A DNA stretch of 32,000 nt from Bradyrhizobium erythrophlei. GTDB taxonomy: Bacteria; Pseudomonadota; Alphaproteobacteria; Rhizobiales; Xanthobacteraceae. Both the position numbers and the translations under genes were made by a program. The stretch covers positions 1,010,278 through 1,042,277 of the forward strand of contig NZ_LT670817.1 in assembly GCF_900129425.1 (NCBI RefSeq), given 5' to 3'. Position 1 is the stretch's first letter; each line of letters opens with the position of its first letter. This document shows positions 7,042 to 21,047 of this stretch, one piece after another. Under the pieces are notes generated by a model, which saw only the letters and a program-made list of their open reading frames with translations, was not told the DNA's origin and made no database searches.

Positions 7042-7116
7042 GCCAGTCCCCTATAGTCGCCGCTCCGGGCGTCAGGTCGGCCGCACTTGCGGCACTCAAA
7101 ACGCCTTTGAACAACT

Positions 7117-7285: not shown

Positions 7286-7407
7286 GCCCTTCCTTCTGAC
7301 GGTCGAGCGTCCTCAGTTACCAAAGACAGTGACGTAATGATTAACGATGCGGGTAAACACGAAGTTAAAGCCGGGGCTGAAAAGCGCTGAAACTTAAGGT
7401 TTTCGCA

Positions 7408-8733
7408 ATGAAAGCACTCGCCGAGCAGATCAGCGACATCGACGGCGTCAACATTTATGGCCGCGTGGTCGGCGTGCGCGGCCTGATGGTCGAGATCGCC
7501 GGGCCGATTCACGCCATGTCGGTCGGCGCCCGCATCGTGATCGACACCGGCGGCAACCGCTTCATTCCATCCGAGGTCATCGGCTTCACCGGCAGCAACG
7601 CCGTGGTGATGCCGTTCGCCGGCCTCGAGGGCGTCAGGCGCGGTTGCCGCGCTGTCATCGCCAATGCCGCCAGCCAGGTAAGGCCTTCGCCGGCATGGCT
7701 CGGCCGCGTCGTCAATGCGATGGGCGAGCCGATCGACGGCAAGGGGCCGTTGCCGCAAGGCGCCTCGCCGATGCCCTATCGCAACTCGCCGCCGCCGGCG
7801 CATTCGCGCAAACGGGTCGGCGCGCCGCTCGATCTCGGCGTGCGGGCGCTCAATACGTTTTTGACCTGCTGCCGCGGCCAGCGGCTCGGCATCTTCGCCG
7901 GTTCCGGCGTCGGCAAGTCGGTGCTGCTGTCGATGCTGGCGCGCAATGTCGACGCCGATATCACGGTGATCGGCCTGGTCGGCGAACGCGGCCGCGAGGT
8001 GCAGGAATTCCTGCAGGATGACTTGGGCGACGACGGTCTGGCGCGCTCGGTGGTGGTGGTGGCGACCTCCGACGAGCCCGCCTTGATGCGGCGGCAGGCG
8101 GCCTACCTGACGCTGGCGATAGCAGAATACTTTCGCGATGAAGGCAAGGATGTGCTGTGCCTGATGGATTCGGTGACGCGTTTTGCGATGGCGCAACGCG
8201 AAATCGGCCTGTCGGCGGGCGAGCCGCCGACCGCCAAGGGCTACACGCCGACCGTGTTCACCGAATTGCCGAAGCTTTTGGAGCGCGCCGGTCCGGGCAC
8301 CGGCGTCGGCACCATTACCGGCATCTTCACGGTGCTGGTGGACGGCGACGACCATAACGAGCCGATCGCGGACGCGGTCCGCGGTATTCTGGACGGCCAT
8401 ATCGTGATGGAGCGGGCGATCGCCGAGCGCGGACGCTTTCCCGCGATCAATATTCTGAAGTCGGTGTCCCGCACCATGCCGAAATCGGCCGATCCGGTCT
8501 ATCTGCCGACCATCATGAGGGGGCGTCAGGTGATGGCGACCTATGCCGACATGGAAGAACTGATCCGACTTGGGGCCTATCGCGCCGGCTCGAGCGCCGA
8601 GGTCGACGAGTCGATCCGGCTGCATGGCCCGCTCGAAGGGTTCCTGCGCCAGGCCAAGGACGAGGTGACCGGCCTGAGCGAGGGTTACCGCCAACTTGAG
8701 CAAATCCTCGGAAGTTTGGAAACGGAACGCTAA
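7408..8733 (+). CDS. fliI: Flagellum-specific ATPase FliI
   Basis: 441-aa ORF. Walker A GSGVGKS. F1/FliI-type segments: [59 protein letters not shown] and [32 protein letters not shown]. Confidence 0.95.
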
Positions 8734-8842
8734 CTTTGTCAGGCCATCATCCGCGCGACACAAATAGCGATGCCGGCGGGGCCCTCGGGGGATGCCGGTC
8801 CTGTCCCGCGTTCAGATTGGGACTTCTGGGGAGTATGAGTCG

Positions 8843-9262
8843 ATGAAGTCACGTGAAACCCTGATCCGCCTGAAGAAGTTTCAGGTCGACGAAAAGCGCC
8901 GAAGGGTCACCCAGATTGAAGGCATGATCGCCGATTTTCAGCGTATGTCGGTCGACCTGGAGCGCGAGATCCACACCGAGCAGGAGCGCGCCGGGATCAA
9001 TGATCCCACGCACTTCGCCTATCCGACCTATGCCAAGGCTGCGATCCAGCGGCGGGAAAACCTGACCCGTTCCGCCGACGAACTGCGGATTCAGCTCGAA
9101 GACGCCAAGAGCCTGCTGACCGAGGCGTTCGAAGAGCTCAAGAAAGTCGAGCTGCTGGACGAGCGCGATCAGGCCCGCGAACGCGCCGAAGAAAACGCCC
9201 GCGAACAGGCCGATCTCGACAGTATCGGCCTGATGCGCGCACGCATCGGGGCCGTCGCCTGA
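8843..9262 (+). CDS. fliJ: Flagellar export protein FliJ
   Basis: ORF 8792..9262. ATG at 8843 is preceded by GGGGAG. The 139-aa coiled-coil protein MKSRETLIRLKKFQVDEKRRRV lies immediately after fliI. Confidence 0.8.
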   Translation: MKSRETLIRLKKFQVDEKRRRVTQIEGMIADFQRMSVDLEREIHTEQERAGINDPTHFAYPTYAKAAIQRRENLTRSADELRIQLEDAKSLLTEAFEELKKVELLDERDQARERAEENAREQADLDSIGLMRARIGAVA

Positions 9263-9295
9263 GGCGCAGCACTCCGTCACCTGCCAAAGCACATC

Positions 9296-9328
9296 AAAAC
9301 CCGGGCCGCGAGGTCCGGGTTTTCTTGT
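9296..9328 (+). terminator. Rho-independent terminator after fliJ
   Basis: aaaacccgggcc-gcga-ggtccgggtttt followed by cttgt; GC-rich stem with a T-run. Confidence 0.7.
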
Positions 9329-9455
9329 GATGTCCACAGGTCGGCGACCGCCGACTTGGTGGACTGGTTCGGCGCAAGCTATGATACGACGAGTCAGGAA
9401 ATGCCGCTTAGATGTGTAGAAAAGCGATGTTGAATCGCGACTTTGGGGGCAATGA

Positions 9456-10001
9456 ATGCTGACGCCAGCTGAGCTGGTCTGGCTGATCGCCGCCGTGGCG
9501 AAGGGGGATGAGGCCGCTTTCGAGCGCCTGTATGCAGCCACACGGGCGAAACTCTTCGGCCTGGTGGTGCGTATCTTGCGCCGGCAGGATCTCGCGGAGG
9601 AGGTCATTCAGGAGGCATACGTCAAGATCTGGAACAGTGCAGGACAGTTCAATCCCGGCCTGGCGTCGCCGATCACGTGGATGGCGTCGATTGCCCGAAA
9701 CCGTGCGATCGACGTCGTGCGCAAGAAGAGCGAGCTCTCGATCGAGGAGGAGCCGGCGGCGATGGAGGTGGCTGCCGAAAGTCCGGATCCGCTGGCGCGC
9801 CGGGAGATGAGCGAAGAGTTGAAGCGGTTGCTGGAGTGCATTGGCCGTCTGGAGCCGGATCGGCAAAAGCTGGTGCTGCTGGCCTATTACAACGGTTGGA
9901 GCCGCGAGCAGCTGGCGGCAAAGTTCGAGACGCCGGTGAATACCGTGAAGACCTGGCTGCGTCGCAGCATGATGGACATCCGGGAGTGTCTTGGACTCTA
10001 G
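9456..10001 (+). CDS. ECF-type RNA polymerase sigma-70 family factor
   Basis: 181 aa. Region 2 (FERLYAATRAKLFGLVVRILRRQDLAEEVIQEAYVKIW) and region 4 (LVLLAYYNGWSREQLAAKFETPVNTVKTWLRRSM). Confidence 0.9.
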   Translation: MLTPAELVWLIAAVAKGDEAAFERLYAATRAKLFGLVVRILRRQDLAEEVIQEAYVKIWNSAGQFNPGLASPITWMASIARNRAIDVVRKKSELSIEEEPAAMEVAAESPDPLARREMSEELKRLLECIGRLEPDRQKLVLLAYYNGWSREQLAAKFETPVNTVKTWLRRSMMDIRECLGL

Positions 10002-10038
10002 AAGACCTCGGACTTTAGCAGATCTTGGACTTTGAATA

Positions 10039-10917
10039 ATGGCCTACAGCGAAGACCATATCGCGCTCGCCGCGGAATATGCCCTCGGCACGCTCGATAC
10101 CGAGGAGCGGGCGCAGGTCGAGGCTATGATGGCCGTCGACAAGGATTTCACCGCGATGGTTCAGGCCTGGGAGCACAAGCTCGGGATCCTGAATCAGATG
10201 GTTGGATCGGTCGAACCGCGCGCGGAAGTCTGGGACAGGATCAGAACCGCCGTGGGACACTCCGAGCCGCAAGGGCCGCTGATGCTTCCCGACGCGCCGC
10301 GACCGCCGCCGGCTGTGCCCGAAGTCGAGACGCCCGCCGTCGTGGATACGTCCAACCTCATTCGGTTGTCCGCCCTGGCGAGGCGCTGGCGCAATATTGC
10401 GACGTTGACGACGGCGATCGCCGCCGCACTGGTCGCCATGATCGCGGTCGGGGTCTATCAGCCGGATCTGCTTCCCGAAGCCATTCGCCCCAAACCGCGG
10501 ACCCAGGTGGTTGAGGTCAAAGCCCCCGCGGCGCCGACGCCGCCGTCCGCCCAGTATGTCGCGGTGTTGCAGAAGGAGGGCGGATCTCCCGCCTTCATTC
10601 TCACCGTCGACGCGGCGACCAAGGACTTCACCGTCCGCAAGGTCGGCGCGGCAGCCGATCCCGGCAAGAGTTTCGAACTCTGGCTGATCTCCGACAAGTT
10701 GCCGCGGCCGCGTTCGCTGGGCGTCATCGGCGACGGCGATTTCACCGCGCGTCCGGTACTGGCGTCGTACGATACCGACACCATCAAGACGGCAACCTAT
10801 GCGGTGACGCTCGAGCAGGCCGGCGGCTCACCGGACGGCAACCCGCACTCGGCGCCGGTCTATACCGGCAAGCTGATCGAGACCGTTCCGCCGGCCGCGC
10901 CGACGCCGCCGCGGTAG
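10039..10917 (+). CDS. Anti-sigma factor, RskA (anti-sigma-K) type, single-pass membrane protein
   Basis: 292 aa. N-terminal anti-sigma domain (AAEYALGTLDTEERAQVEAMMAVDKDF...WEHKL), a central TM helix (IATLTTAIAAALVAMIAVGVY), and a C-terminal RskA-like domain (FELWLISDKLPRPRSLGVI ... YAVTLEQAGGSP). Lies 37 nt after the sigma gene. Confidence 0.85.
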   Translation: MAYSEDHIALAAEYALGTLDTEERAQVEAMMAVDKDFTAMVQAWEHKLGILNQMVGSVEPRAEVWDRIRTAVGHSEPQGPLMLPDAPRPPPAVPEVETPAVVDTSNLIRLSALARRWRNIATLTTAIAAALVAMIAVGVYQPDLLPEAIRPKPRTQVVEVKAPAAPTPPSAQYVAVLQKEGGSPAFILTVDAATKDFTVRKVGAAADPGKSFELWLISDKLPRPRSLGVIGDGDFTARPVLASYDTDTIKTATYAVTLEQAGGSPDGNPHSAPVYTGKLIETVPPAAPTPPR

Positions 10918-11054
10918 AGCCTGATCAGTCGGAAGAAAAGGACAGGCGTCTTGCGCACCGTCCGCTCTCTCCCTTTGGAGGGGGCGATGGCGAAAGTGGG
11001 GGAGAGAACGCACCCGCTTCGCAACCGAGAGTAAGACCAGACCAGCCCACAAAA

Positions 11055-11085
11055 TGAAAACGCCCGTGGGGAGCGGGCGTTTTCG
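11055..11085. terminator. Bidirectional rho-independent terminator between convergent genes
   Basis: aaaacgcccg-tggggag-cgggcgtttt (11057-11083), with A-runs and T-runs on both sides. Confidence 0.7.
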
Positions 11086-11175
11086 GTAGTCAACTTGGGG
11101 GTAGTTGGGTCTTCTTATATCCACGAGGCGACTTTGGGGGGCTGGTTAAAGAGCCACGTGAATTCCTTAAACTCC

Positions 11176-11376
11176 TCAACGGACGAGCGACGTATCCGAA
11201 CTGGTGACCGCCACCGGTTTGCCGGCCTTGATGACGCGCGCAGTCTGGGTATAGCCGTCGTCCGAATTGTTCCGAGCCGAGACGCTGAGGCCGACCACCA
11301 CGATACCTGCCACGAGGGCTACGACCACGATCTTGAGGTGAGTCGAGCGATCCGCGCTGTAGATCGAATGGTTCAT
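11176..11376 (-). CDS. Small single-pass membrane protein, hypothetical
   Basis: ORF 11176..11403. ATG at 11376 is preceded by GGGAGG. MNHSIYSADRSTHLKIVVVALVAGIVVVGLSVSA has one clear TM helix. Confidence 0.5.
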   Translation of the reverse strand: MNHSIYSADRSTHLKIVVVALVAGIVVVGLSVSARNNSDDGYTQTARVIKAGKPVAVTSSDTSLVR

Positions 11377-11708
11377 GGAAGCCTCCCGGCGTCTCCCCTG
11401 CACCCTACGGATTTGTCTCTGTCGCCCGCTGGCAGGTTCAACAGCTCATGGCAAGCAAAGTAGGAATTCGGCTTTAAGTTCCTAAGAGGCGATCACAAAG
11501 CAGTGAAAAGACTTGAACGCCCGCGATCAGCGTTCTCGGCCGGAACCCTCCAGCTGACGATAACTAAATTATTTCAAAATGTTATTAGAGATTAAGAGTT
11601 TGGTGCGAGCTGTGGCGCCAAACGGCCCCCAACCCGGCTTGGCAGAAAATCGTTTGCCTGTGGCAAAAAAGATGCGGCTTCGGTGCTTCGGCCAGCCCTC
11701 GCTGCTAG

Positions 11709-13841
11709 CTAGATGCTTCCGACCGTCTTCAGCCGCGCGCGGGGATGGATTTCGGCCTGCGACAACACCGTCGTTTGCGACCTGAAGCGCTCCACCAGCG
11801 AACGCACGAAGGGACGGATCGCCGCCGAGGTCACCAATACCGGCGCCTCGCCTTCGCGGGCCGCCTGTTCGAAGCGCTCGCGTACCACGGTCATGAACTC
11901 CGACAGTCTTGAAGGCTGCATCGCAAGACTGCGCTCCTCGCCCGTGCCGATCAGCGACTCGGCAAAGGCCTGCTCCCATTTTGCCGACAGCGCGATCAGC
12001 GGCAGGTAGCCGTTATGGGAGGTATTCTGGGCGCAAATCTGCCGCGCCAGCCGGGCGCGAACATGCTCGACCATGGTGGCCGGGTTGCGCGAAAACGCCA
12101 GCGCGTCGGCGATGCCTTCGAGAATGGTCGAGAGATCGCGGATCGAGATGCGCTCGGCGAGCAACAGCTGCAGCACGCGCTGAATGCCCGAGATCGTGAC
12201 CAGGCTCGGCACGATGTCCTTGACCAGTTCGCCCTGCTCCTTCGGCAGGTCCTTCAGGAGTTTCTGCACCTCGCCATAGGACAACAGGTCCGACATATTG
12301 TTCTTGAGAAGCTCGGTGAGGTGGGTCGAGAGCACGGTGGCGGCGTCGACCACGGTATAGCCCTTCAGCGAAGCCTCCTCCTTCAGGCTGGCATCGACCC
12401 AGGTTGCCGGCAGCCCGAAGGTCGGCTCGGTGGTATGTATGCCGGGCACTCCGACCTGGTTTCCTGCGGGGTCCATGACCATGAACTGGTTCGGCCAGAT
12501 CCGGCCGGTGCCGGCATCGACTTCCTTGATCTTGATGACGTAGGTGTTGGCCTCGAGCTGCACGTTGTCGAGGATGCGCACCGCCGGCATCACAAAGCCC
12601 ATCTCGATCGCGAGCGAACGGCGCAGCGCCTTGATCTGCTCGGTCAGGCGGTCGGTTCCGTCGGGGCCGTTGACCAGCGGCAGCAGCGCATAGCCGAGTT
12701 CGATCTTGAGATCGTCGATCTTTAGCGCGGTTGCGATCGGCTCTTCGGCCGCGGCGTTCGCCGCGGCGGCGGCTGCGGGAGCGGCGGCGGCGACCGCCGC
12801 GGCTGTCGAGGCCGCGCGTTTGCGTTTGCCCGCCGTGATCGCCAGCGCCGCCGCGCCGCCGCCCAGCAGCAGGAAGGGAATCATCGGAATACCCGGCAGG
12901 ATCGCCAGCACCAGCATCACACCGGCCGACATGCCGAGCGCCTGCGGATAGCCGGAAAGCTGCTTCATCAGCGCCTTGTCGGCGGCGCCGCTGACGCCCG
13001 CCTTCGAGACCAGCAAGCCCGCCGCGGTGGAGACGATCAGCGCGGGCACCTGCGTCACCAGGCCGTCGCCGACGGTCAGCAGCGTGTAGCTGCGTGCGGC
13101 TTCGCCGAAACCGAGGCCTTGCTGGAAGACGCCGATGATGATGCCGCCGATGATGTTGATGAAAACGACCAGAAGGCCGGCGACCGCGTCGCCGCGCACG
13201 AATTTCGACGCACCGTCCATCGCACCGAAGAAGCCGCTTTCGTCTTCCAGTGCCTTGCGGCGCTCCTTGGCGACTTTCTCGTCGATCAGCCCGGCGGACA
13301 GATCGGCGTCGATCGCCATCTGCTTGCCCGGCATGGAATCGAGGTGAAAGCGGGCCGCGACTTCCGCGATACGTCCCGAACCTTTGGTAATGACGACGAA
13401 ATTCACGATCACCAGAATCGCGAAGACGATAATTCCGATCACGAAATTGCCGCCCATCACGAAATTGCCGAAGGCTTCGATGACGTGGCCGGCGGCGTCG
13501 CTGCCCTCATGTCCGCGTGACAGGATCAGCCGGGTCGAGGCCAGGTTGAGCGACAGCCGCAGCATGGTCGAAATCAGCAGAATGGTCGGGAACGAGGAGA
13601 ATTCCAGCGGCGCCTGGATGAACAGCGATGTCATCAGGATCAGGATCGACAGCGTGATCGAGATCGCGAGAAAGAGGTCGAGCACGATCGAGGGCAGCGG
13701 CAGGATCAGCACGACCAGAATGGTGAGGATACCGAACGCCAGCGCGAGATCGCCGCGCTTCAGGATGGTGCCGATTTCGCTGAAACTCGGAATGCCGCTT
13801 CCGGGCGCCCTTGCGATCTGCCCTGCCGTGACATCGACCAT
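11709..13841 (-). CDS. flhA: Flagellar biosynthesis protein FlhA (export gate)
   Basis: ORF 11709..13943; the likely start is ATG 13841 (MVDVTAGQ...). FlhA hallmarks: LALAFGILTILVVLILPLP, FPTILLISTMLRLSLNLASTRLIL, ITKGSGRIAEVAARFHLDSMPGKQMAIDADL, KFVRGDAVAGL. Confidence 0.95.
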   Translation of the reverse strand: MVDVTAGQIARAPGSGIPSFSEIGTILKRGDLALAFGILTILVVLILPLPSIVLDLFLAISITLSILILMTSLFIQAPLEFSSFPTILLISTMLRLSLNLASTRLILSRGHEGSDAAGHVIEAFGNFVMGGNFVIGIIVFAILVIVNFVVITKGSGRIAEVAARFHLDSMPGKQMAIDADLSAGLIDEKVAKERRKALEDESGFFGAMDGASKFVRGDAVAGLLVVFINIIGGIIIGVFQQGLGFGEAARSYTLLTVGDGLVTQVPALIVSTAAGLLVSKAGVSGAADKALMKQLSGYPQALGMSAGVMLVLAILPGIPMIPFLLLGGGAAALAITAGKRKRAASTAAAVAAAAPAAAAAANAAAEEPIATALKIDDLKIELGYALLPLVNGPDGTDRLTEQIKALRRSLAIEMGFVMPAVRILDNVQLEANTYVIKIKEVDAGTGRIWPNQFMVMDPAGNQVGVPGIHTTEPTFGLPATWVDASLKEEASLKGYTVVDAATVLSTHLTELLKNNMSDLLSYGEVQKLLKDLPKEQGELVKDIVPSLVTISGIQRVLQLLLAERISIRDLSTILEGIADALAFSRNPATMVEHVRARLARQICAQNTSHNGYLPLIALSAKWEQAFAESLIGTGEERSLAMQPSRLSEFMTVVRERFEQAAREGEAPVLVTSAAIRPFVRSLVERFRSQTTVLSQAEIHPRARLKTVGSI

Positions 13842-14010
13842 CGTTGCTGCTTCCCCCCGCGAATGCCGGTCACGGGCGCCAAACGTCTGCGCGGCGGCCG
13901 AAGGACCACCGTTTCGAAAGTGAGGCACCGCACTGGCGTCCACGGGTACTCCCCCGTTTTACGCGGCTGACGACACTCAACTTTTTTACTGGGCAATTTT
14001 TGCCCGGTTT

Positions 14011-14068: not shown

Positions 14069-14086
14069 GATGCGCAATTGCGCATC
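14069..14086. promoter_or_regulatory. Perfect 18-bp palindrome, candidate operator
   Basis: GATGCGCAATTGCGCATC equals its own reverse complement. It sits in the flhA/MFS divergent region and overlaps the first ATG of the MFS ORF. Confidence 0.45.
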
Positions 14087-15464
14087 GGGGAACCTCGAGA
14101 TTCCGGGTTCGATGCCAGTGCATCGCCCCGGAATGACGGAAACCCTGTTGCACTGCATCTGCATGCCCAATATCGCGCCATGTTGCTTGACCCACGGGCC
14201 GCGGGCAGGGAAGTTGCCCGTCGTGCACGCTCCCTCCGATTCCCAAGGTCGCCAAGCTTTCGCCCCTGATTCCCGCCAGGCTTGGGTGCGGCTTGCGCTC
14301 GCGCTGGTGATCGGCTCGATCGGCAGCGTCGGCATGTGGTCGGTCGTGGTCGTGCTGCCGGGGGTGCAGGCCGAATTCGGGGCCAGCCGCGGCGATGTAT
14401 CGTTGGCCTTTACCTTCACCATGCTCGGCTTCGGTCTCGGCGGCGTCGCCGCCGGAAAGATCACCGATCGCCTCGGCATCGTGGTGGCGATCGGGCTTAG
14501 CATCGGCTTTCTTGGCGTGGCCTATGTGGCCGCCGGCCTTTCGACCACGCTGTGGCAGTTCATTGCCGTGTATTTCCTGATCGGACTGGGGACGTCGGCG
14601 ACCTTCGCGCCGCTGATGGCGGAGGTTTCGCACTGGTTCGAACGCTATCGCGGGCTGGCGGTGACCATCGTTGCCAGCGGCAATTATGTCGGCGGAACGA
14701 TCTGGCCGCCGCTGGTCAATTGGGGCGTGCAGTTGGCCGGCTGGCGCACCACCCATATCGCTGTCGGAATTTTCTGCGCCGTGACCATGACGATGGTGCT
14801 GCTGCTGCTGCGCGCCCAGATCGGCGGCGCAACACGGCGAGATCATGAGAACGCGCCGCCGCCGCGGGTCGATCTGCGGCTCAGCAACAATACGCTGACG
14901 GCGCTGCTGTGCATCGCCAGCGTTTCCTGCTGCGTGGCGATGGCGATGCCGCAGGTTCACATCGTCGCCTATTGCGGCGATCTCGGCTACGGTGTGGCGC
15001 GCGGCGCCGAAATGCTGTCGCTGATGATGGCGTTCGGGATCGTCAGCCGCATCGGATCGGGGTTTCTCGCCGACAGGATCGGCGGCGTCAGAACGTTGAT
15101 GATCGGATCGGTGGCGCAGGGTTTTGCGCTGCTGTTCTATCTGTTTTTCGACAGTCTCTCCTCGCTCTATATCATCTCCGCGATGTTCGGGCTGTTCCAG
15201 GGCGGTATCGTGCCGAGCTACGCCATCATCGTCCGCGAATCGATGCCGGCCAGCGAAGCCGCGACCCGGGTCGGCATCGTGATCCTGGCTTCCGTGGTCG
15301 GGATGTCATTCGGCGGCTGGGTCTCCGGCGTGATCTTCGACGCGACCGGCTCCTACGCGGCGGCTTTCCTCAATGGCCTTTTGTGGAATGCGCTCAACAT
15401 CACCATCGGGGCCGGGCTGTTGCTCCGGGCGCGGCAACGGCTGGCGATGGCGTCAACGACCTGA
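14070..15464 (+). CDS. MFS transporter
   Basis: 464-aa ORF with about 12 hydrophobic segments and MFS-like loops (GKITDRLGIV; FLADRIGGVRTL). The start is uncertain. In-frame alternatives are ATG 14133, ATG 14163 and GTG 14223. GTG 14223 follows AGGGAAG and leaves about 20 aa before TM1. Confidence 0.85.
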   Translation: MRNCASGNLEIPGSMPVHRPGMTETLLHCICMPNIAPCCLTHGPRAGKLPVVHAPSDSQGRQAFAPDSRQAWVRLALALVIGSIGSVGMWSVVVVLPGVQAEFGASRGDVSLAFTFTMLGFGLGGVAAGKITDRLGIVVAIGLSIGFLGVAYVAAGLSTTLWQFIAVYFLIGLGTSATFAPLMAEVSHWFERYRGLAVTIVASGNYVGGTIWPPLVNWGVQLAGWRTTHIAVGIFCAVTMTMVLLLLRAQIGGATRRDHENAPPPRVDLRLSNNTLTALLCIASVSCCVAMAMPQVHIVAYCGDLGYGVARGAEMLSLMMAFGIVSRIGSGFLADRIGGVRTLMIGSVAQGFALLFYLFFDSLSSLYIISAMFGLFQGGIVPSYAIIVRESMPASEAATRVGIVILASVVGMSFGGWVSGVIFDATGSYAAAFLNGLLWNALNITIGAGLLLRARQRLAMASTT

Positions 15465-15657
15465 GCATGCCCATGGAAGGCCGCCCCAACAACCGCCGGG
15501 GCCGACGGCGCCGTTTCATTGACGCTGTCCGTGAAACGTGCATCATACCATCAGGACAACCGAACGCCAGTTCGACATTTGAAATGCTTGATTATCGAAG
15601 CGTCATTTGTATTGCGGGAGTATCGTTCGCGTCATTGCACCATTCCAAATTTTTCAA

Positions 15658-15789
15658 AGTCCGATTATTCAGATTGAGGAGAAAGTCATGCGGCATCTCG
15701 TGCGCATTGTCCTTTCCATATTTGTCGCCGCTCTGATCGTTCAAACGACAGCCATCTCGAAGTCTTTCGCCGATTGTCCGCCGAATTGC
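15658..15789 (+). repeat. Direct repeat copy 1 (5' UTR, signal peptide and DCPPNC-coding part of mini-protein A)
   Basis: Aligns with 18124..18259. Within it, 49 of 50 nt are identical (ctcgtgcgcattgtcctttcNatatttgtcgccgctctgatcgttcaaac). Both copies share AGGAGAnAGTCATG at the start. Confidence 0.85.
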
Positions 15790-15852
15790 AGAAAGGGGAA
15801 TCAGAGTGCGCCTCCGGCCTCGCCCCCGCCCTCGAACCCACCCCCCAAATGA
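15688..15852 (+). CDS. Secreted mini-protein A (54 aa): signal peptide, DCPPNC motif, Pro/Ser-rich tail
   Basis: ATG at 15688 follows GAGGAGAAAGTC. Sequence MRHLVRIVLSIFVAALIVQTTAISKSFADCPPNCRKGNQSAPPASPPPSNPPPK. A paralog lies at 18158. The synonymous-only divergence across ISKSFADCPPNC argues for translation. Confidence 0.65.
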   Translation: MRHLVRIVLSIFVAALIVQTTAISKSFADCPPNCRKGNQSAPPASPPPSNPPPK

Positions 15853-15953
15853 GAGCGTTGCTGTCTGCGATTAGACGCGCCGGCGCTGGTGCGGCTTTCC
15901 GTATTTGATATGCTTTTCCAATGCGAACGAATTGACGGACGAGCCACGGCACC

Positions 15954-18137
15954 ATGCTCAGGGCTTCCAAAAAGGCAACGAGCCAGGAATCGCCAGACCA
16001 TCGGCAACGTTTGAGCGCCTGGGCACCCAAAACGCAGCGCGCGGCGGCACGCTGGTTGAAAGCCGGTCGAAAAGTCTGGTCTTTGCAAGGCGCGGGGCTA
16101 ATGACCGCCGCGGCGGCGCTGATCAGCATCATCCAAATTCTCGTTGCGGTTCAGGGCAAGCTGGTGATTCTTCCGTTCGAGGTCAGGAGCGATCAAAATA
16201 CGCCGAGCGATCTGGGAGCGTCGTTTTCGGCCAGCCTGTCGATCGCTCTGAATGAATACAGGTCGCTATTTCCCTCCTCGGCTCCGAACAGCGCACGGCA
16301 GACTGTTACGAGCAAAAACTATCCCGACCTCGTTCAATCCTTCATGTCGGACCTGCCGTTTGTTGAGATTCCGAGATCTTCACCCTTGAACAAAGGTGCG
16401 ACGGTCCTCGAGGCAATTAAAATCGGGCCGATTTCGATACCGGTCAGTCAGGTCGTGTTCGAGAATCTGGCTTTCTTTCACGACGACACGTTGCGAGGAA
16501 CGCTTGAGATCTGGGGAAACGAACTCGTTGCGAGGATTTCGCTGGGGAACGACGATGCAACGACCACCATTTCTGTTCCGAAAGATCAGGGCTACCGTGC
16601 GCTGATAGATCGTATAACCGTGGAATTGCTTCAAAAGAAGAAGTGGATTTCTCCAATCCCGATGAAGCTGTCAGCTTTGACGTTGTTCAGTGAAGGGCTG
16701 CACAATTATTTGAACTTCGACTTATATGCAGAAGACAGGTTCATCAGCGCTGCCCGGGAAAAGTACCAAGCCGCGTTGCAGGCGGACCCTGATGCCGATC
16801 TGGCCCGTCTCCATCTAGCCGCTACGCAGTACATCAGCACCGACCCGGCAATCATCGCAAAGGCGGTAGAGAATTTCTCGCTGCTGGTCGGAGACCGGCA
16901 TTTCAACCGCGCCGCCAGAATTGGATATGTCGCTTCTTCTTTGCGATACATTGAGCGCGCGGGCGGGTGCACCGGGTTATACCGGTTTCTGGCTCCGACC
17001 CTCCAGGAGGTCCGATCATGGGAGCAGGACGGGAAACCCCCCGCTGGAATCGAAGAACTGCTGCTTTGGAGTGCAACGTTTCAATTGACCGCTGACTTTC
17101 TGCTCCCCGGCAAGCCGTGCGCGCAATGGATTAAATCGACGTTACGGGAAGACAGCGTCACCAAGCTGTTCGAGAAGGCACAACAGGGCTACGAACAGGC
17201 AAAGGCGAAGATCGCGGAACCAAAGCGATACCCGGATAGCGTAGTTGCACGATATCAATTTTACGTTCTTCTCAGCACCAAATATTTGCTCGATGACATG
17301 GTCGATTATTCCCTGCTTTTGAAAACCCCAAATCTGGAGCTTGCAAACGCCGCGCTGGAACGCGGCAAGGAAATCGAGAAGCAGAAGGACGCGATGCCCG
17401 AAGCGCAGCAGCGCTTTTTCGCAACCAGCATCGCCGGCTCTGTTGCAGACAGCTATTTGCGGATAGCGAAGATATACGAATCGAACGCATCAGCGGCAGG
17501 ACCGCTTGTTTCGGCCGCCATCGATCAACTACGGCTGGCGGCAGGATCAACCGAACCGCTCACCGCGCAATGGGCTTTGTTCCGGCTGGCTGACCTTGAA
17601 CTGGGCCGATCGAACGCGCGAACGTCAATGGAGTGGTTGACCCGGGCCTATAGCGGTTTGCCGTCGTTTTCCAGCGCCTTCGATGAATCCTATTTTCCGT
17701 TTGGCATCCTGGTCGAAAAGCCCAGCCAGCGCTGCGAGGCCATCACGCTGCTCAAAAAAGGAAGCGCAGCAGGAAGCGTCGCGAGTAAACTGCTTCTTAT
17801 CGACGCGCTGCGGCGGATGGGCGATTTGCCCAACGCATTGGCGACTGCGGACACGCTTCGAACGTCCGTCGATTGGTCGACCAAGTGGATGGGCGGCGCG
17901 ATCCAGCAAAAGCTCTCGCTGGTCGAAGCGAAACTGAAGCCGCACAACACAGTTCCTGTCGATATGGAGGCGCTGTGGAAACAATCCGATTCGCTGGGCC
18001 CCGAAAACGAGTTTCTGAAATTTGACGTTTACGAACTGGCGGAAATCATCGGGGATGAAGCGCTCTTGACAAAGCTGAAAGCGAGAATATCGTTTCCGCC
18101 ATTGCATCAATCTGGAGTTGTCCAGTCCAATTGTTGA
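15954..18137 (+). CDS. Membrane-anchored TPR-like repeat protein, hypothetical
   Basis: 727-aa ORF. Basic N-terminal tail (11 K/R against 2 D/E in 48 aa), one TM helix (MTAAAALISIIQILVAV), then KLVILPFEV and a long helical region containing at least one clear TPR-like unit (AREKYQAALQADPDADLARLHLAATQY). An alternative start is ATG 16101. GC is lower than in neighbouring genes. Confidence 0.8.
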   Translation: MLRASKKATSQESPDHRQRLSAWAPKTQRAAARWLKAGRKVWSLQGAGLMTAAAALISIIQILVAVQGKLVILPFEVRSDQNTPSDLGASFSASLSIALNEYRSLFPSSAPNSARQTVTSKNYPDLVQSFMSDLPFVEIPRSSPLNKGATVLEAIKIGPISIPVSQVVFENLAFFHDDTLRGTLEIWGNELVARISLGNDDATTTISVPKDQGYRALIDRITVELLQKKKWISPIPMKLSALTLFSEGLHNYLNFDLYAEDRFISAAREKYQAALQADPDADLARLHLAATQYISTDPAIIAKAVENFSLLVGDRHFNRAARIGYVASSLRYIERAGGCTGLYRFLAPTLQEVRSWEQDGKPPAGIEELLLWSATFQLTADFLLPGKPCAQWIKSTLREDSVTKLFEKAQQGYEQAKAKIAEPKRYPDSVVARYQFYVLLSTKYLLDDMVDYSLLLKTPNLELANAALERGKEIEKQKDAMPEAQQRFFATSIAGSVADSYLRIAKIYESNASAAGPLVSAAIDQLRLAAGSTEPLTAQWALFRLADLELGRSNARTSMEWLTRAYSGLPSFSSAFDESYFPFGILVEKPSQRCEAITLLKKGSAAGSVASKLLLIDALRRMGDLPNALATADTLRTSVDWSTKWMGGAIQQKLSLVEAKLKPHNTVPVDMEALWKQSDSLGPENEFLKFDVYELAEIIGDEALLTKLKARISFPPLHQSGVVQSNC

Positions 18138-18259
18138 GGTTGGTTCAGGAGATAGTCATGAGAGCCCTCGTGCGCATTGTCCTTTCAATATTTGTCGCCG
18201 CTCTGATCGTTCAAACCGCTGGTATTTCCAAATCGTTCGCCGATTGTCCGCCAAACTGT
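18124..18259 (+). repeat. Direct repeat copy 2
   Basis: Matches 15658..15789. It starts inside the last codons of the TPR gene (agtccaattgttga) and ends at the second Cys codon of mini-protein B. Confidence 0.85.
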
Positions 18260-18292
18260 AAGCCGAAAGAAGCTCCGCCCCCGAAGCCATAA
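18158..18292 (+). CDS. Secreted mini-protein B (44 aa), paralog of A; not in the supplied ORF track
   Basis: Hand translation from ATG 18158, preceded by CAGGAGATAGTC and lying 20 nt after the TPR stop: MRALVRIVLSIFVAALIVQTAGISKSFADCPPNCKPKEAPPPKP, stop TAA at 18290-18292. 31 of the first 34 residues are identical to mini-protein A. Confidence 0.65.
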   Translation: MRALVRIVLSIFVAALIVQTAGISKSFADCPPNCKPKEAPPPKP

Positions 18293-18567: not shown

Positions 18568-20148
18568 TTACCGCGGCATCCCCCGCAGATTTTGCTTCGC
18601 TTCGGGATTGCCGAGCGCCGCCGCCTTCTCGAACCACTGGCGCGCGGCCCTGACATTGCGGCGAACGCCGTCGCCTTCGTTGTAGATCACCCCGAGGTTG
18701 TTCATCGCGGCGGCGTTGCCGAGCGCCGCGCCTTGTTCGAACAGGTGCCGTGCCTCGCCATAATCGCGGGGTACGCCTTTGCCATAAAGATAGATCAGGC
18801 CAAGATTGCCCATGCCTGCAGGCACGCCGGCCTTGGTCGCCAATTCGTACAACCGGCGGGCTTCCGCCAGGTCCTTGACCACGCCGTGCCCGGTCTCATA
18901 GAGCCAGCCGAGGTCGACCATGGCGATCGGTTCGCCGGCCGCCACACCCCTCGCGTACCAGCGGCCCGCCTCGACATAATTGGTGGGTACGCCCTCGTTA
19001 CCCTCGTACACGCTGCCCAGATTGTTCATCGCCATGCCGTAACCGGCGGCGGCTGCTTGCTCGTAGAGCCGCCGCGCCTCGACATAGTCCTTCCGCGCGG
19101 TGGCCACGCGTCCGGCCTCGAAGGTAAATCTCACCACTTCCGGATAGTGCGCGATCGCGTCGTTGCAGGCTGTGGAGGCCGCGGCGACGTTGATCCTGTC
19201 CACTTCCACGCCTGCGAGGTCCGGCGCATGCCCGGTATCGTAGGGCATCCCGGCCAGCCGGTCGCAGTCGGTGACGAGATCGCGGCGGAGCGGATCGTCC
19301 GGCGGCGTGATCCGGGCTTCCTGAACGGGCGTATCAGGCGGTGCCAGCGCCGGCCAGGCGTCCACCGTCGGCGGCTTGCCGGCGAAATAGAAATTGCCCG
19401 CGATCGGCGAGGAGGACACCCACGGCAGTTGCTGGCCGCCGGTCGCCTTCTCCACCGCAAGGCCGACTTCGTTGAACGACTTGAACAGGCCGAAGCCGGG
19501 CCGCTGCATCGTTTCCGCCAGCGCGCGCGTATACGGGCTGTGACCGTCGTCGCCATCGAGCGAGACGCTGCGCGGCTGGGTCGCAAACGAAATCAAGGTC
19601 CCGATGGGTGCCTGCATCTGCGCAAGGCCGCCCGTGGTCGAGCGTACGCCGCGGTCCCTGAACGGGTTGTCGCGACAGGCGTCGAGCAAGACCAGGTTGA
19701 TCCGCGCCCCGGCTTTTTCCATCTGGCCGAGAATGCTCGCAAGACCGGTCATCTGCGCAAACACATCGCCTTCATCGGCCGGATGGGCGTCGACCGGGAC
19801 CAGATAGTTGAGGCCGTGCGTCTCCACGCCGTGGCCGGCATAATAGAACAGCGCGACGTCGGCTCCGGTCAGCGCCGTGCCGAACTTGCGCAGGGCCTCG
19901 TCGAAGCCTGCCTTGTCGAGGTCAAGCTGGGCGCCGCCGCCGACGATGGCAAAGCCGAGCGAGGACAGCGTATCCGCAATCAGCCTGGCATCGGCCGTGG
20001 GGTTGGGCAGCGCCGGCACGGTGCGGTACGCCGAATTGCCGATCACCAGCGCGACGCGTTTTTCCGCATGCGCCGCCGAGCAGCGGCCGGCGCACATCAA
20101 CAATGCCGCGAGTATCCATCGCGACACGATGCCGATCCGGCCGTCCAT
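18568..20148 (-). CDS. Secreted caspase-family (peptidase C14) protein with C-terminal Sel1 repeats
   Basis: ORF 18568..20343. The likely start is ATG 20148, with GGAGAG 9 nt upstream, giving a signal-like N-terminus MDGRIGIVSRWILAALLMCAGRCSAAHA/EKRVALVIGNSAY. C14 His and Cys motifs: FYYAGHGVE and LVLLDACRDNPF. The C-terminus has four full and one partial 36-aa Sel1 repeats (e.g. AGRWYARGVAAGEPIAMVDLGWLYETGHGVVKDLAE). Confidence 0.85.
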   Translation of the reverse strand: MDGRIGIVSRWILAALLMCAGRCSAAHAEKRVALVIGNSAYRTVPALPNPTADARLIADTLSSLGFAIVGGGAQLDLDKAGFDEALRKFGTALTGADVALFYYAGHGVETHGLNYLVPVDAHPADEGDVFAQMTGLASILGQMEKAGARINLVLLDACRDNPFRDRGVRSTTGGLAQMQAPIGTLISFATQPRSVSLDGDDGHSPYTRALAETMQRPGFGLFKSFNEVGLAVEKATGGQQLPWVSSSPIAGNFYFAGKPPTVDAWPALAPPDTPVQEARITPPDDPLRRDLVTDCDRLAGMPYDTGHAPDLAGVEVDRINVAAASTACNDAIAHYPEVVRFTFEAGRVATARKDYVEARRLYEQAAAAGYGMAMNNLGSVYEGNEGVPTNYVEAGRWYARGVAAGEPIAMVDLGWLYETGHGVVKDLAEARRLYELATKAGVPAGMGNLGLIYLYGKGVPRDYGEARHLFEQGAALGNAAAMNNLGVIYNEGDGVRRNVRAARQWFEKAAALGNPEAKQNLRGMPR

Positions 20149-20350
20149 GACAATGCACTCTCCGCGCGCGAGCGAATTCCCGCTGTCTGTTGGTGTCGTA
20201 ACGGCAGGGATTGGTTCGATCAGTGAAGGCCGCCGCGGTCCGAAACGATCGGCGAGTGTGGCCATCTTATTCATTTTAGTTGAATGGCTGGATGCAGCGT
20301 CACAGATCCAATCTTTCCAGAGGTCCGGATACCGGGCTACCACACCTATC

Positions 20351-20388
20351 TTGCATCAATGGTAGAAATTATATATAATTCTACCATG
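20351..20388 (+). promoter_or_regulatory. vapBC sigma70-type promoter with an overlapping inverted-repeat operator
   Basis: TTGCAT (20351-20356), 17 nt, TATAAT (20374-20379). Perfect 9-bp inverted repeat ATGGTAGAA (20359-20367) and TTCTACCAT (20379-20387), separated by an 11-nt AT spacer. Confidence 0.6.
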
Positions 20389-20397
20389 AGGAAGGCG

Positions 20398-20649
20398 ATG
20401 CATCTGAACATCAAAAACGACGAGGCCCATAAGCTTGCAACCGAGCTTGCCGAACTGACCGGCGAAAGCCTGACCTCGGCCGTCACGCTGGCCTTGCGGG
20501 AGCGTCTCGCGCGAGAGCGCCGTCGCCGTCGAACCGACCGCATCGCGGCCCGATTGATGAAGATTGGTAGCCAGTTTGCTGCGCTCGCCGATACCGGACG
20601 CGGCCCGGACGAAATCCTCGGTTATGACGACGACGGCTTGCCGACATGA
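20398..20649 (+). CDS. vapB: Type II antitoxin, VapB/FitA-like
   Basis: ORF 20284..20649. The preferred start is ATG 20398, after GAGGAAGG (20388-20395). MHLNIKNDEAHKLATELAELTGESLTSAVTLALRERL is typical of antitoxins partnered with PIN toxins. Its stop overlaps the vapC start (ATGA). Confidence 0.8.
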   Translation: MHLNIKNDEAHKLATELAELTGESLTSAVTLALRERLARERRRRRTDRIAARLMKIGSQFAALADTGRGPDEILGYDDDGLPT

Positions 20650-21047
20650 TCGTGGTCGACAGTTCGGCCGTCATCGCAATCTTTCGCCAGGAGGAGGATG
20701 CAGAGGTTTATGCGGAAAGCATCGCAGCCGATGAAGATCCGGTGATGTCCGCAGCCAACCTGGTGGAGGTATCGGTTGTGTTGCGTGGGTTGAAAAAGAC
20801 AGTGCCGGAAAAGGCTGAACGATGGCTTGACGATTTCATCAAGGCGGCGGGCATCCGGATAGAACCGGTAACGCCAGAGCAGGCGCAGGCGGCGCGTTTG
20901 GCACACTTGAGATACGGCAAAGGTACCGGGCATGGCGCGGCGCTGAACTATGGCGATTGCTTCGCCTATGCACTGGCAAAGGCAATGGACGCGCCGCTGC
21001 TGTGCAAGGGGAACGATTTTCCGTTGACCGACATAGGCATCGCGTAG
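20646..21047 (+). CDS. vapC: Type II toxin VapC (PIN-domain ribonuclease)
   Basis: 133 aa. MIVVDSSAVIAI (N-terminal Asp), NLVEVSVVL (Glu), YGDCFAYALA (Asp) and LLCKGNDF match the PIN acidic-residue pattern. Confidence 0.9.
   Translation: MIVVDSSAVIAIFRQEEDAEVYAESIAADEDPVMSAANLVEVSVVLRGLKKTVPEKAERWLDDFIKAAGIRIEPVTPEQAQAARLAHLRYGKGTGHGAALNYGDCFAYALAKAMDAPLLCKGNDFPLTDIGIA

What the first reader, a model, noticed from the sequence alone, without database searches (positions are those of the whole stretch)
15658..18292. Two paralogous secreted mini-protein genes bracket a TPR gene; one is invisible to the ORF track
Reading the DNA after the TPR stop (18137) shows a 44-codon ORF (18158-18292) below the ORF-track cutoff. 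It is a paralog of the 54-codon ORF at 15688-15852. Both start with AGGAGAnAGTCATG. 31 of the first 34 residues are identical: MR(H/A)LVRIVLSIFVAALIVQT(TA/AG)ISKSFADCPPNC. The divergence pattern is informative. The signal-peptide-coding 50 nt are 49/50 identical. The 12 codons for ISKSFADCPPNC carry 7 differences, all synonymous (atc/att, tcg/tcc, aag/aaa, tct/tcg, ccg/cca, aat/aac, tgc/tgt). That is the signature of purifying selection on a translated peptide, not of a non-coding repeat. After the second Cys the sequences are unalignable (20 versus 10 residues), but both are Pro-, Lys- and Ser-rich. I do not recognise this family.
Basis: seen in the sequence. Interest (0 to 1): 0.8.

Follow-up and report, generated by a model that had tools for sequence, protein, structure and literature searches.

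The report
Tiny exported Cys-loop protein genes
Two very small genes flanking a large membrane-protein gene in a soil Bradyrhizobium are real genes for exported mini-proteins that share an invariant Cys-Pro-Pro-Asn-Cys loop. This kind of mini-gene always accompanies that large gene, so the two form a previously undescribed gene pair whose function is still unknown.

Summary
miniA (15688-15852, 54 aa) and miniB (18158-18292, 44 aa) share 31 of their first 34 residues. Thirteen codons differ, ten of them synonymously (dN/dS 0.06). Each has an AGGAG ribosome-binding site, a Sec-type signal peptide, a conserved [S/A]-x-A cleavage site, then CPPNC and a short tail with almost no hydrophobic residues, often Pro/Lys-rich.

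The conserved unit is not the bracket. It is the 727-aa gene followed 10-22 nt later by one mini-gene. This holds in every orthologous locus, and also in a relative whose large protein is only 40% identical. There the uncalled mini-ORF reads GCPPDC after an unrelated signal peptide. The upstream copy is a lineage-specific duplicate.

The "TPR gene" has no Pfam or NCBIfam family. Its model (pLDDT 83) shows a membrane anchor, a periplasmic α/β domain and a TPR-like solenoid, with four conserved cysteines, the last at or near the C-terminus.

The pair is rare: 45 clusters among 1.84 billion proteins, and 2 of 185,579 species genomes. It does occur in cultured Bradyrhizobium erythrophlei, where miniB has no NCBI protein record.

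Most likely the mini-protein is a periplasmic partner of the large protein. That step is inferred, not shown.

The parts
15688..15852 (+). miniA: 54-aa precursor MRHLVRIVLSIFVAALIVQTTAISKSFA|DCPPNCRKGNQSAPPASPPPSNPPPK. It is the lineage-specific upstream duplicate. The predicted signal peptide is 15688-15771, the CPPNC codons are 15775-15789 and the stop codon is 15850-15852.
   Evidence: sequence; dN/dS. One search shows the exact sequence annotated as hypothetical protein SAMN05443248_1034 of Bradyrhizobium erythrophlei. Orthologous A copies occur in L019, L021, L022, L025 and L027.
15677..15681 (+). Shine-Dalgarno AGGAG of miniA, 6 nt before the ATG.
   Evidence: GGAG-type sites lie 6-9 nt upstream of the ATG in most orthologues; L005 has the weaker AAGGAA.
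15954..18137 (+). Large partner gene (727 aa). Residues 1-45 form a basic cytoplasmic N-terminus, about 46-66 a TM helix, 69-230 a periplasmic α/β domain and 239-709 a TPR-like α-solenoid. The tail is disordered and ends in an invariant Cys727. The periplasmic cysteines are C339, C389, C594 and C727.
   Evidence: TPR hits below threshold only; no NCBIfam family. AlphaFold2 model with pLDDT 82.9 and pTM 0.79. Foldseek matches only generic TPR solenoids, E >= 1e-3. Cys conservation and topology.
18147..18151 (+). Shine-Dalgarno AGGAG of miniB, 6 nt before the ATG and 10 nt after the large gene's stop codon.
18158..18292 (+). miniB: 44-aa precursor MRALVRIVLSIFVAALIVQTAGISKSFA|DCPPNCKPKEAPPPKP. 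It occupies the ancestral position directly after the large gene. The predicted signal peptide is 18158-18241, the CPPNC codons are 18245-18259 and the stop codon is 18290-18292.
   Evidence: A positional orthologue follows the large gene in most fetched loci that extend past its stop codon; the exceptions are decayed copies in L013/L014 and L027 and the anomalous junction in L025. No NCBI accession exists for this sequence.
15674..15782 (+). Upstream arm of the nucleotide-level repeat, covering the ribosome-binding site through codon 32. Its partner is 18144-18252.
   Evidence: blastn 85% identity over 110 nt, E 2.5e-29.
18144..18252 (+). Downstream arm of the nucleotide-level repeat.
15519..15546 (+). 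Promoter-like site (TTGACG-16-CATCAT). It follows a terminator-like hairpin (15494-15510) downstream of the MFS stop codon and may mark the start of a miniA-large-miniB transcription unit.
   Evidence: This is a consensus match only, not evidence of function.
14070..15464 (+). MFS transporter gene. It is the syntenic upstream neighbour in the close clade only, and no MFS gene precedes the large gene in the 400 nt available at the distant locus L030.
   Evidence: MFS_1. Searches (synteny; L030 upstream region).

Best explanation
Both small ORFs are real protein-coding genes.

Each encodes a precursor with a Sec-type signal peptide. Signal peptidase I probably cleaves it after a conserved [S/A]-x-A, releasing a 12-28-residue periplasmic mini-protein. 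The only conserved element of that mini-protein is a Cys-Pro-Pro-(Asn/Asp)-Cys loop starting at residue 2 or 3. The loop is probably closed by a disulfide in the periplasm. A variable tail with almost no hydrophobic residues follows; it is Pro/Lys-rich in most members and usually ends in Lys.

The mini-gene is the constant genomic partner of the preceding 727-aa gene. That gene encodes an inner-membrane-anchored protein with a periplasmic α/β domain and a TPR-like solenoid. The mini-gene starts 10-22 nt after the large gene's stop codon, so the two are probably translationally coupled.

Inferred mechanism: the mini-protein acts in the periplasm as a dedicated ligand or subunit of the large protein. 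The loop or the extended tail may dock on the solenoid, or the loop may engage the large protein's conserved C-terminal cysteine.

miniA is a recent duplicate covering the ribosome-binding site, the signal peptide and the CPPNC segment, with a new tail. It appears to be functionally redundant with miniB.

Shown: coding status, purifying selection, the conserved pairing of the two genes and the domain layout. Inferred: export, cleavage, the disulfide and the physical interaction.
For: Coding status:
- dN/dS is 0.06 between miniA and miniB and 0.1-0.35 among orthologues, with dS saturated.
- A Shine-Dalgarno site lies 6-9 nt upstream of the start codon in most copies, weaker in L005.

Conserved pairing:
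- Most fetched loci that extend past the large gene's stop codon carry an intact mini-ORF 10-22 nt downstream. The exceptions are decayed copies in L013/L014 and L027 and the anomalous junction in L025.
- A metagenome scan seeded with the mini-protein motif returned only loci that also hold the large gene, plus one chance match.
- At L030 the large protein is 40% identical to the window's. An uncalled ORF, MRKTIKLLLLVATVVTALQAIAVRPSQAGCPPDCGSEQGKPP, follows its stop codon after 22 nt.

Export features:
- The N-terminus is basic and is followed by an uncharged run of 12-26 residues.
- [S/A]-x-A always lies 1-2 residues before the first Cys.
- The first Cys is always at precursor position 29 or 30.
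- The L030 signal peptide is unrelated in sequence but has the same layout.

The large protein lies in the same compartment:
- Its N-terminus carries 11 K/R against 2 D/E. The TM helix is at about residues 46-66.
- 23 of 28 family members have exactly four periplasmic Cys.
- The model shows a TPR-like solenoid, a fold that typically binds extended peptides.

Redundancy of the copies:
- In L027 miniA is intact and miniB is frameshifted.
- In L013 the copy next to the large gene has decayed and a second downstream copy is intact.
Against:
- No signal-peptide predictor was available. Cleavage rests on the (-3,-1) rule and the length of the hydrophobic region.
- Within the close clade the signal-peptide region is more conserved than the mature tail, and its synonymous sites are unusually conserved. 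That could mean the N-terminal segment does more than direct export, for example by acting as an uncleaved membrane anchor.
- In L013/L014 the large gene is frameshifted while one mini copy stays intact. This is not what strict co-dependence predicts, although the frameshift may be recent or an assembly error.
The L030 mini-gene was also uncalled, so this is weak evidence.
Confidence: 0.6

Rival explanations
1. The mini-protein is not cleaved. Its N-terminal hydrophobic segment stays in the inner membrane as a signal anchor, like small membrane regulators such as MgrB. It pairs with the TM helix of the large protein and displays the CPPNC loop and tail in the periplasm.
For: - Within the close clade the N-terminal 28 residues are better conserved than the mature part: I7, L9, S10, A14 and Q19 are invariant or nearly so, including two polar residues inside the hydrophobic run.
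- The uncharged run is 17-18 residues in most copies, which is borderline for a TM helix.
- Synonymous sites of codons 4-19 are unusually conserved.
Against: - The L030 hydrophobic region has no sequence similarity to the others, and only its layout is kept.
- An [S/A]-x-A site sits at a fixed distance before the first Cys in all 13 sequences.
- The strictly hydrophobic core is only about 12 residues, and a charged residue (K25 or R24) precedes the cleavage motif.
Confidence: 0.2
2. The CxxxC pair is a thiol-based metal-binding or redox site, for example Cu(I), reminiscent of the CPDVC site of Sco proteins (motif recalled from memory). On this reading the mini-protein is a periplasmic metal or redox shuttle serving the large protein or nearby efflux genes.
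For: - Both Cys are invariant, with fixed spacing.
- A Cus-type RND pump, its adaptor and a YtkA-domain gene lie just upstream of the MFS gene in L001 and in the 8-kb P0002 contig. An OEP-type gene (a faint Pfam hit) lies nearby in L009.
- The large protein has four conserved Cys, one of them at the C-terminus.
Against: - The efflux genes are not conserved neighbours. The window and L013 have flhA in that position, and no such genes appear in the short contig L030.
- The tails contain no His or Met ligands.
- The N/D interchange in the loop fits a turn-forming role better than a metal ligand.
- A periplasmic Cys pair is expected to be oxidised.
Confidence: 0.1
3. The mini-genes encode precursors of a modified peptide or bacteriocin, and the large protein is its maturation, export or immunity factor.
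For: The layout is a small, variable-tailed, Cys-containing peptide gene, duplicated repeatedly, next to a large gene of unknown function. An MFS transporter lies upstream in the close clade.
Against: - The large protein has no enzymatic, protease or ABC domain.
- The N-terminus is a Sec-type signal, not a leader with a double-glycine or similar site.
- No MFS gene precedes the large gene at L030.
- The conserved core is only five residues and the tails drift freely.
Confidence: 0.05
4. The two copies are a non-coding direct repeat, such as a regulatory RNA or DNA element or a recombination site, that happens to contain open reading frames.
For: - The 48-nt block covering codons 4-19 is nearly identical between the copies. 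It is also unusually conserved between lineages at synonymous sites.
- A short pairing between the Shine-Dalgarno site and UCCUU is present in the four close-clade copies folded individually, and a 4-bp version is kept in 7 of 9 aligned sequences.
Against: - Ten of the 13 differing codons are synonymous, and the frame is kept across saturated dS.
- At L030 the protein layout and the CPPDC motif persist with no nucleotide similarity.
- RNA folding is no better than for shuffled sequence (z +0.1 to +2.0) and shows essentially no covariation: one compensatory change among four predicted pairs.
Confidence: 0.03

Closest known systems
Rap-Phr and other RRNPP cassettes of Firmicutes (TPR receptor gene followed by a small gene for a Sec-exported pro-peptide)
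   Same: - The gene order is the same: a large TPR-type gene followed immediately by a 40-55-codon gene with a Sec-type signal peptide.
- The small gene evolves fast outside a short core.
- Rap structures appear among the Foldseek matches to the solenoid.
   Different: - The matches are weak (E about 1e-2) and generic for TPR folds, with no sequence homology.
- The receptor here is membrane-anchored with its solenoid in the periplasm, so no Opp re-import would be needed.
- The conserved peptide core is a Cys-Pro-Pro-Asn/Asp-Cys loop at the mature N-terminus rather than a linear C-terminal penta- or hexapeptide.
- The host is an alphaproteobacterium.
- The large protein has no effector domain (phosphatase or HTH).
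MgrB-PhoQ type small membrane-protein regulators (established knowledge, not tested here)
   Same: Both are proteins under 60 aa with a basic N-terminus, one hydrophobic segment and a short periplasmic part whose two cysteines are essential. Both act on a larger inner-membrane protein.
   Different: - There is no sequence relationship.
- The partner here has no kinase domain.
- The mini-protein has a conserved signal-peptidase-type site, so it is probably released.
- It is encoded adjacent to its presumed partner, whereas mgrB is encoded elsewhere.
CadC periplasmic sensor domain and the transmembrane anti-σ factor DdvA (single-pass proteins with large helical periplasmic domains)
   Same: All are single-pass N-in proteins with a large periplasmic helical-repeat domain and conserved periplasmic cysteines. 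Foldseek gives weak hits to both: 3lya and related CadC entries at E about 9e-3, and 8rw5/8rot at E about 3e-3.
   Different: - The large protein lacks a cytoplasmic DNA-binding domain (CadC) and a zinc-binding anti-σ domain (DdvA).
- It lacks the CHAT protease domain that defines the DdvA periplasmic region (PMC11506125).
- The TM-scores are 0.15-0.28.
Sco/SenC CxxxC copper site (motif CPDVC, recalled from memory)
   Same: Both have a Cys-Pro-x-x-Cys motif in an extracytoplasmic protein.
   Different: Sco is a thioredoxin-fold protein of about 200 aa with an additional His ligand. The mini-protein is a peptide of 12-28 residues with no His. The resemblance is in the motif only.

Membership tests
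TPR repeat proteins (Pfam TPR clan) | [quoted passage not shown] | tested here: not met
   The window protein's best hit is TPR_11 at 15.9 bits against a cut-off of 26.8, E 0.01. Across the family, 8 of 28 members hit TPR_19, with a best E of 1.6e-7.
TPR repeat proteins (Pfam TPR clan) | Right-handed α-solenoid of paired antiparallel helices | tested here: met
   The AlphaFold2 model (pLDDT 82.9) has about 22 helices over residues 239-709. The top Foldseek PDB matches are mostly TPR-type helical-repeat solenoids (Ctr9, SPINDLY/OGT, Ski3, LGN, Rap), with probability up to 1.0 but E >= 1e-3 and low TM-scores.
Rap-Phr / RRNPP peptide-receptor cassettes | Small gene with a Sec signal peptide directly downstream of the TPR receptor gene | tested here: met
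   The mini-gene starts 10-22 nt after the large gene's stop codon at most loci that extend past it.
Rap-Phr / RRNPP peptide-receptor cassettes | Cytoplasmic receptor that binds the re-imported mature peptide and carries an effector (3-helix or HTH) domain | tested here: not met
   The large protein has a TM helix at about residues 46-66 and a basic N-terminus (11 K/R against 2 D/E), so it is N-in with the solenoid in the periplasm. No effector domain was found.
Rap-Phr / RRNPP peptide-receptor cassettes | Sequence homology to Rap/NprR/PlcR/PrgX | tested here: not met
   There are no Pfam or NCBIfam hits. The PDB profile search finds only designed TPR/PPR proteins.
Sec (type I) signal peptide | Basic n-region, hydrophobic h-region, small residues at -3 and -1 | tested here: met
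   All 13 sequences show M[RK] near the start and an uncharged run of 12-26 residues. All have [S/A]-x-A placed 1-2 residues before the first Cys. This was judged by inspection and a simple script; SignalP was not available.
Sec (type I) signal peptide | Actual cleavage and export | not testable with these tools
   Needs reporter fusions or peptide mass spectrometry.
Bacterial lipoproteins | Lipobox L-[AS]-[GA]-C with Cys at +1 | tested here: not met
   The residue before the first Cys is D, E, K, Q or G. It is preceded by A, G or D in the forms FAD, FAE, FAK, AGQ, AAQ, ADK and QAG. No sequence fits the lipobox except marginally L030, with S-Q-A-G-C.
Cytochrome c haem-binding motif | CXXCH (or CX3-4CH) with His after the second Cys | tested here: not met
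   The second Cys is followed by R, K, G, P, D or E, never by His.
CadC-type periplasmic sensors / DdvA-type anti-σ factors | Cytoplasmic DNA-binding domain (CadC), or zinc-binding anti-σ domain plus periplasmic CHAT domain (DdvA) | tested here: not met
   The cytoplasmic part is only about 45 residues and has no Pfam domain. The model has no β-rich CHAT-like domain. The DdvA features are taken from PMC11506125.
Known anti-phage defence systems (PADLOC) | Match to a PADLOC protein model | tested here: not met
   The large protein and both mini-proteins have no hits. Only the unlinked caspase-Sel1 neighbour hits a generic caspase model.

The most novel reading that the evidence does not exclude
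The pair could be an entirely extracytoplasmic peptide-receptor or thiol-relay module of Gram-negative bacteria. The disulfide-closed CPP(N/D)C loop of the released mini-protein would be recognised by its membrane-anchored TPR-like partner, or would exchange disulfides with that partner's invariant C-terminal cysteine. The pair would then report on periplasmic redox or envelope state. The short basic cytoplasmic helix of the large protein would pass the signal inward. This would resemble Rap-Phr in gene layout but work without peptide re-import.
Probability: 0.15. Interest if true: 0.75.

Novelty: new variant of a known kind. Interest (0 to 1): 0.45.

Why it matters
- It is a clear case of a real small gene that standard annotation misses. 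miniB has no NCBI protein record, and the L030 copy was not called by the gene finder. Its coding status can nevertheless be established by comparative genomics alone.
- It defines a previously undescribed two-gene module: a membrane-anchored α/β plus TPR-like periplasmic protein with four conserved cysteines, and a 12-28-residue exported peptide with an invariant five-residue Cys loop. The pairing has survived divergence of the large protein down to 40% identity.
- The module occurs in a cultured strain, Bradyrhizobium erythrophlei, so export, processing, disulfide state, binding and phenotype can all be tested directly.
- Its narrow distribution limits how general the finding is: 45 clusters in 1.84 billion proteins and 2 of 185,579 species genomes.

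Tried and rejected
- **Protein families.** Pfam, NCBIfam and PADLOC gave no family for either mini-protein or the large protein.
- **DdvA lead.** The match is to its TPR part only, and its defining CHAT and zinc-binding anti-σ domains are absent here.
- **RNA element.** No stable or covarying structure explains the near-identical 48-nt block.
- **Neighbouring genes as functional partners.**
  - The caspase-Sel1 gene is present only in the window.
  - flhA and the Cus-like efflux cluster alternate between lineages.
  - The MFS gene is syntenic only in the close clade.
- **L026.** This is a chance SFADCPPNC match inside unrelated integrase-containing DNA.
- **Viral contigs.** There are no relatives. 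The A3 alignment was too divergent to seed a scan.
- **Literature.** A search for "CPPNC" returned only unrelated acronyms. A small-protein/TPR/Bradyrhizobium search found nothing relevant.
- **Other distant relatives.** The contigs for P0019, P0021, P0025 and P0032 returned no DNA, so the presence of a mini-gene there could not be checked.


Full report
**1. The observation**

- miniA is 15688-15852 (54 codons). miniB is 18158-18292 (44 codons), starting 20 nt after the large gene's stop codon (18135-18137).
- Both are preceded by AGGAGA(A/T)AGTC-ATG.
- 31 of the first 34 residues are identical.
- Over those 34 codons, 13 differ. Ten of the changes are synonymous, including all seven in ISKSFADCPPNC.
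- Nucleotide homology spans 15674-15782 versus 18144-18252 (110 nt, 85%, E 2.5e-29). It ends just before the last two codons of the CPPNC motif, and the tails are unrelated.
- Nei-Gojobori dN/dS between the two copies is 0.06.

**2. The ORFs are genes**

I recovered 13 distinct copies: the two in the window and 11 from other loci.
- Homologues of the large protein led to metagenomic contigs.
- The same gene was found in two MAGs.
- A metagenome scan was seeded with the mini-protein itself.
- A second lineage carrying both copies was also recovered.

The features they share:
- Most copies have a GGAG-type ribosome-binding site 6-9 nt upstream of the ATG; in L005 it is the weaker AAGGAA.
- The N-terminus is basic and is followed by a hydrophobic stretch.
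- An [S/A]-x-A motif lies 1-2 residues before the first Cys.
- That Cys is always at precursor position 29 or 30.
- The CPPNC pentapeptide is invariant.
- The tail is 6-22 residues long with 0-1 hydrophobic residues, Pro/Lys-rich in most copies. It ends in Lys in 9 of the 13.

Among orthologues dN/dS is 0.1-0.35 with dS saturated.

The strongest single result comes from L030. Its large protein (P0063) is only 40% identical to the window's. The gene caller found nothing after it. Yet 22 nt after the stop codon, behind a GGAGG, lies MRKTIKLLLLVATVVTALQAIAVRPSQA|GCPPDCGSEQGKPP. The signal peptide shares no sequence with the others but has the same layout, and the core reads CPPDC. So the functional core is x(1-2)-C-P-P-[N/D]-C at the mature N-terminus, and the pairing with the large gene is old.

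**3. What the conserved unit is**

The bracketing arrangement is not ancestral.
- Most loci have the large gene followed by one mini-gene 10-22 nt later.
- The upstream copy exists only in the sub-clade whose large proteins are at least 77% identical to the window's: the window, L019, L021/L022, L025 and L027.
- Only the ribosome-binding site, the signal peptide and the CPPNC segment were duplicated. The A-type tail is a new low-complexity stretch that changes by in-frame slippage:
  - a 4-codon deletion in L019, whose large protein is 98% identical to the window's;
  - a run of 12 prolines in L025;
  - a frameshifted 73-aa variant, P0001.
- Duplication has recurred. L013/L014 carry two tandem downstream copies. 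The one next to the large gene has decayed (its start is lost and CPPNC has become RPSNC) and the second is intact.
- In L027 miniB is frameshifted while miniA is intact. This suggests the copies are interchangeable.

Every true hit of the motif-seeded metagenome scan lies next to the large gene. The one exception, L026, is a chance match inside unrelated DNA.

**4. The large gene**

Its label as a "TPR gene" rests on Pfam hits that are below threshold, and it has no NCBIfam family.

An exhaustive profile search of 1.84 billion representative proteins found only 45 clusters. Their full-length members are 700-790 aa. Only 2 of 185,579 species-representative genomes carry the gene.

With a 28-sequence alignment, AlphaFold2 gave a model with pLDDT 82.9 and pTM 0.79. 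Its layout is:
- a basic cytoplasmic N-terminus of about 45 residues, with 11 K/R against 2 D/E;
- a TM helix at about residues 46-66;
- a mixed α/β domain at 69-230, with no detectable relatives;
- a TPR-like solenoid at 239-709;
- a disordered tail.

Foldseek finds only generic TPR solenoids (OGT/SPINDLY, Ski3, LGN, Rap). It also gives weak hits to CadC and DdvA. No match has E <= 1e-3.

Exactly four periplasmic cysteines are present in 23 of 28 members. C339 and C389 are invariant. The last Cys lies 0-5 residues from the C-terminus in 22 of 28, and it is the terminal residue in 10 of the 12 close members.

**5. Mechanism**

*Shown:*
- The mini-ORFs are coding genes under purifying selection.
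- They are strictly co-inherited with the large gene, with spacing compatible with translational coupling.
- Both products have the features of extracytoplasmic proteins.

*Inferred:*
- Sec export and cleavage after [S/A]-x-A.
- Oxidation of the CPP(N/D)C loop.
- Binding of the released peptide of 12-28 residues to the periplasmic part of the large protein.

TPR solenoids typically bind extended peptides. The conserved C-terminal Cys also leaves open a mixed-disulfide interaction.

*Rivals:*
- An uncleaved membrane-anchored mini-protein. The strong conservation of the hydrophobic segment within the close clade favours it. L030 and the conserved cleavage motif argue against it.
- A thiol metal or redox peptide. 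Cus-like neighbours in three lineages favour it, but they are not conserved neighbours.
- A modified-peptide or bacteriocin precursor. No enzyme domain and no conserved transporter support it.
- A non-coding repeat. This is refuted by the codon pattern and by L030.

**6. An unexplained detail**

Synonymous divergence inside the mini-genes is uneven.
- Codons 4-19 show 1 synonymous change per 14 sites between miniA and miniB. They show only 1-2 per 13 sites between the window's miniA and its orthologues in L027 and L025.
- The adjacent large gene has pS 0.43 and 0.51 between the same lineages.
- Codons 20-34 of the mini-genes are saturated (pS 0.75-0.93).

Gene conversion explains the similarity between miniA and miniB but not the low divergence between orthologues. 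RNA folding gives no stable or covarying structure. With only about 13 sites this could still be chance (binomial P about 0.01).

**7. Origin and annotation**

The exact miniA and large-protein sequences are on record from Bradyrhizobium erythrophlei, which has a 9.09-Mb genome.
- miniA is SHG29121.1 (SAMN05443248_1034).
- The large protein is SHG29149.1 and WP_154072014.1.
- Both are annotated as hypothetical proteins.
- The 44-aa miniB sequence has no NCBI accession.

No paper mentions the motif.

**8. Verdict**

It is a new, rare two-gene module that resembles known pairs of a small exported peptide and a larger partner. It belongs to none of the known families considered, and its function is unknown. 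Interest is moderate: the evidence for a missed small gene and a deeply conserved five-residue core is unusually clean. Against that, the taxonomic range is narrow and nothing yet points to a surprising mechanism.

Noticed in passing
L009 3814-3964 vs 6512-6662; L010 3398-3546 vs 6096-6244; L013 7759-7866 vs 10675-10782; L027 100-202 vs 3062-3164: In four lineages the large-plus-mini cassette is flanked by direct repeats of the 3' end of the upstream MFS gene (104-151 nt, 75-98% identical). An intact MFS gene lies upstream, and a C-terminal MFS remnant with its own stop codon lies just after the mini-gene. This suggests the pair was inserted or acquired as a unit at the MFS 3' end. The remnant is absent from the window and from L019.
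   Followed up: partly
L025 2521-2715: In this NCBI metagenome contig the large gene's stop codon is followed by a mini-type ribosome-binding site (AAGAAGAAAGTC). Where the mini-gene's ATG is expected, the sequence continues with the last 56 codons of the MFS gene. This is either a deletion of miniB by recombination or a chimeric assembly.
   Followed up: partly
window 15697-15744 and 18167-18214 (mini codons 4-19): Synonymous sites in this block are far more conserved than in the adjacent large gene or in codons 20-34. This holds between the paralogues and between orthologues. No RNA structure was found to explain it.
   Followed up: partly
window 15954-18137 (residues C339, C389, C594, C727): The large-protein family keeps exactly four periplasmic cysteines in 23 of 28 members. 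The last Cys is the C-terminal residue in 10 of the 12 close members and lies within 5 residues of the C-terminus in most distant ones.
   Followed up: partly
L013 8001-10198 (= L014): The large gene is split by a frameshift near residue 405. The same frameshift appears in two contigs from different samples that are 100% identical over 3,656 nt. It may be a pseudogene or a shared assembly error.
   Followed up: partly
window 15954 vs GenBank annotation: Two start-site calls exist for the large protein in public records: 678 aa (SHG29149.1) and 727 aa (WP_154072014.1). The 727-aa form matches the full-length orthologues, including the basic N-terminus.
   Followed up: no
window 18066-18093 (+): The best promoter-like match in the region (TTGACA-16-TATCGT, 10 of 12) lies inside the 3' end of the large gene, about 65 nt upstream of the miniB ATG. 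It could give miniB its own transcript. This is a consensus match only.
   Followed up: no
window 18568-20343 (-): Convergent neighbour encoding a caspase-like (Peptidase_C14) domain followed by four Sel1 repeats, probably with its own signal peptide. It is not a conserved neighbour of the module, since other lineages have DUF4864, patatin or SnoaL genes there.
   Followed up: partly
window 20284-21047 (+): A VapBC-type toxin-antitoxin pair: an Rv0623-like antitoxin (PSK_trans_fac) whose gene overlaps the following PIN-domain toxin gene by 4 nt.
   Followed up: no
window 6340-13943: Scattered flagellar-export genes sit close upstream of the module. fliI (7408-8733, +) and flhA (11709-13943, -) are interrupted by an ECF sigma factor gene (9456-10001) and an RskA-type anti-sigma gene (10039-10917). 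An OmpR-type response regulator gene lies at 6340-7041 (-).
   Followed up: no
L001 1-3792; 8-kb contig of P0002 (no DNA); L009 341-1780: A Cus-type RND efflux cluster (pump, adaptor, YtkA-domain protein) lies just upstream of the MFS gene in two lineages, and an OEP-type gene (faint Pfam hit) lies there in L009. In the window and L013 that position holds flhA. The region upstream of the MFS gene has therefore been rearranged repeatedly.
   Followed up: no
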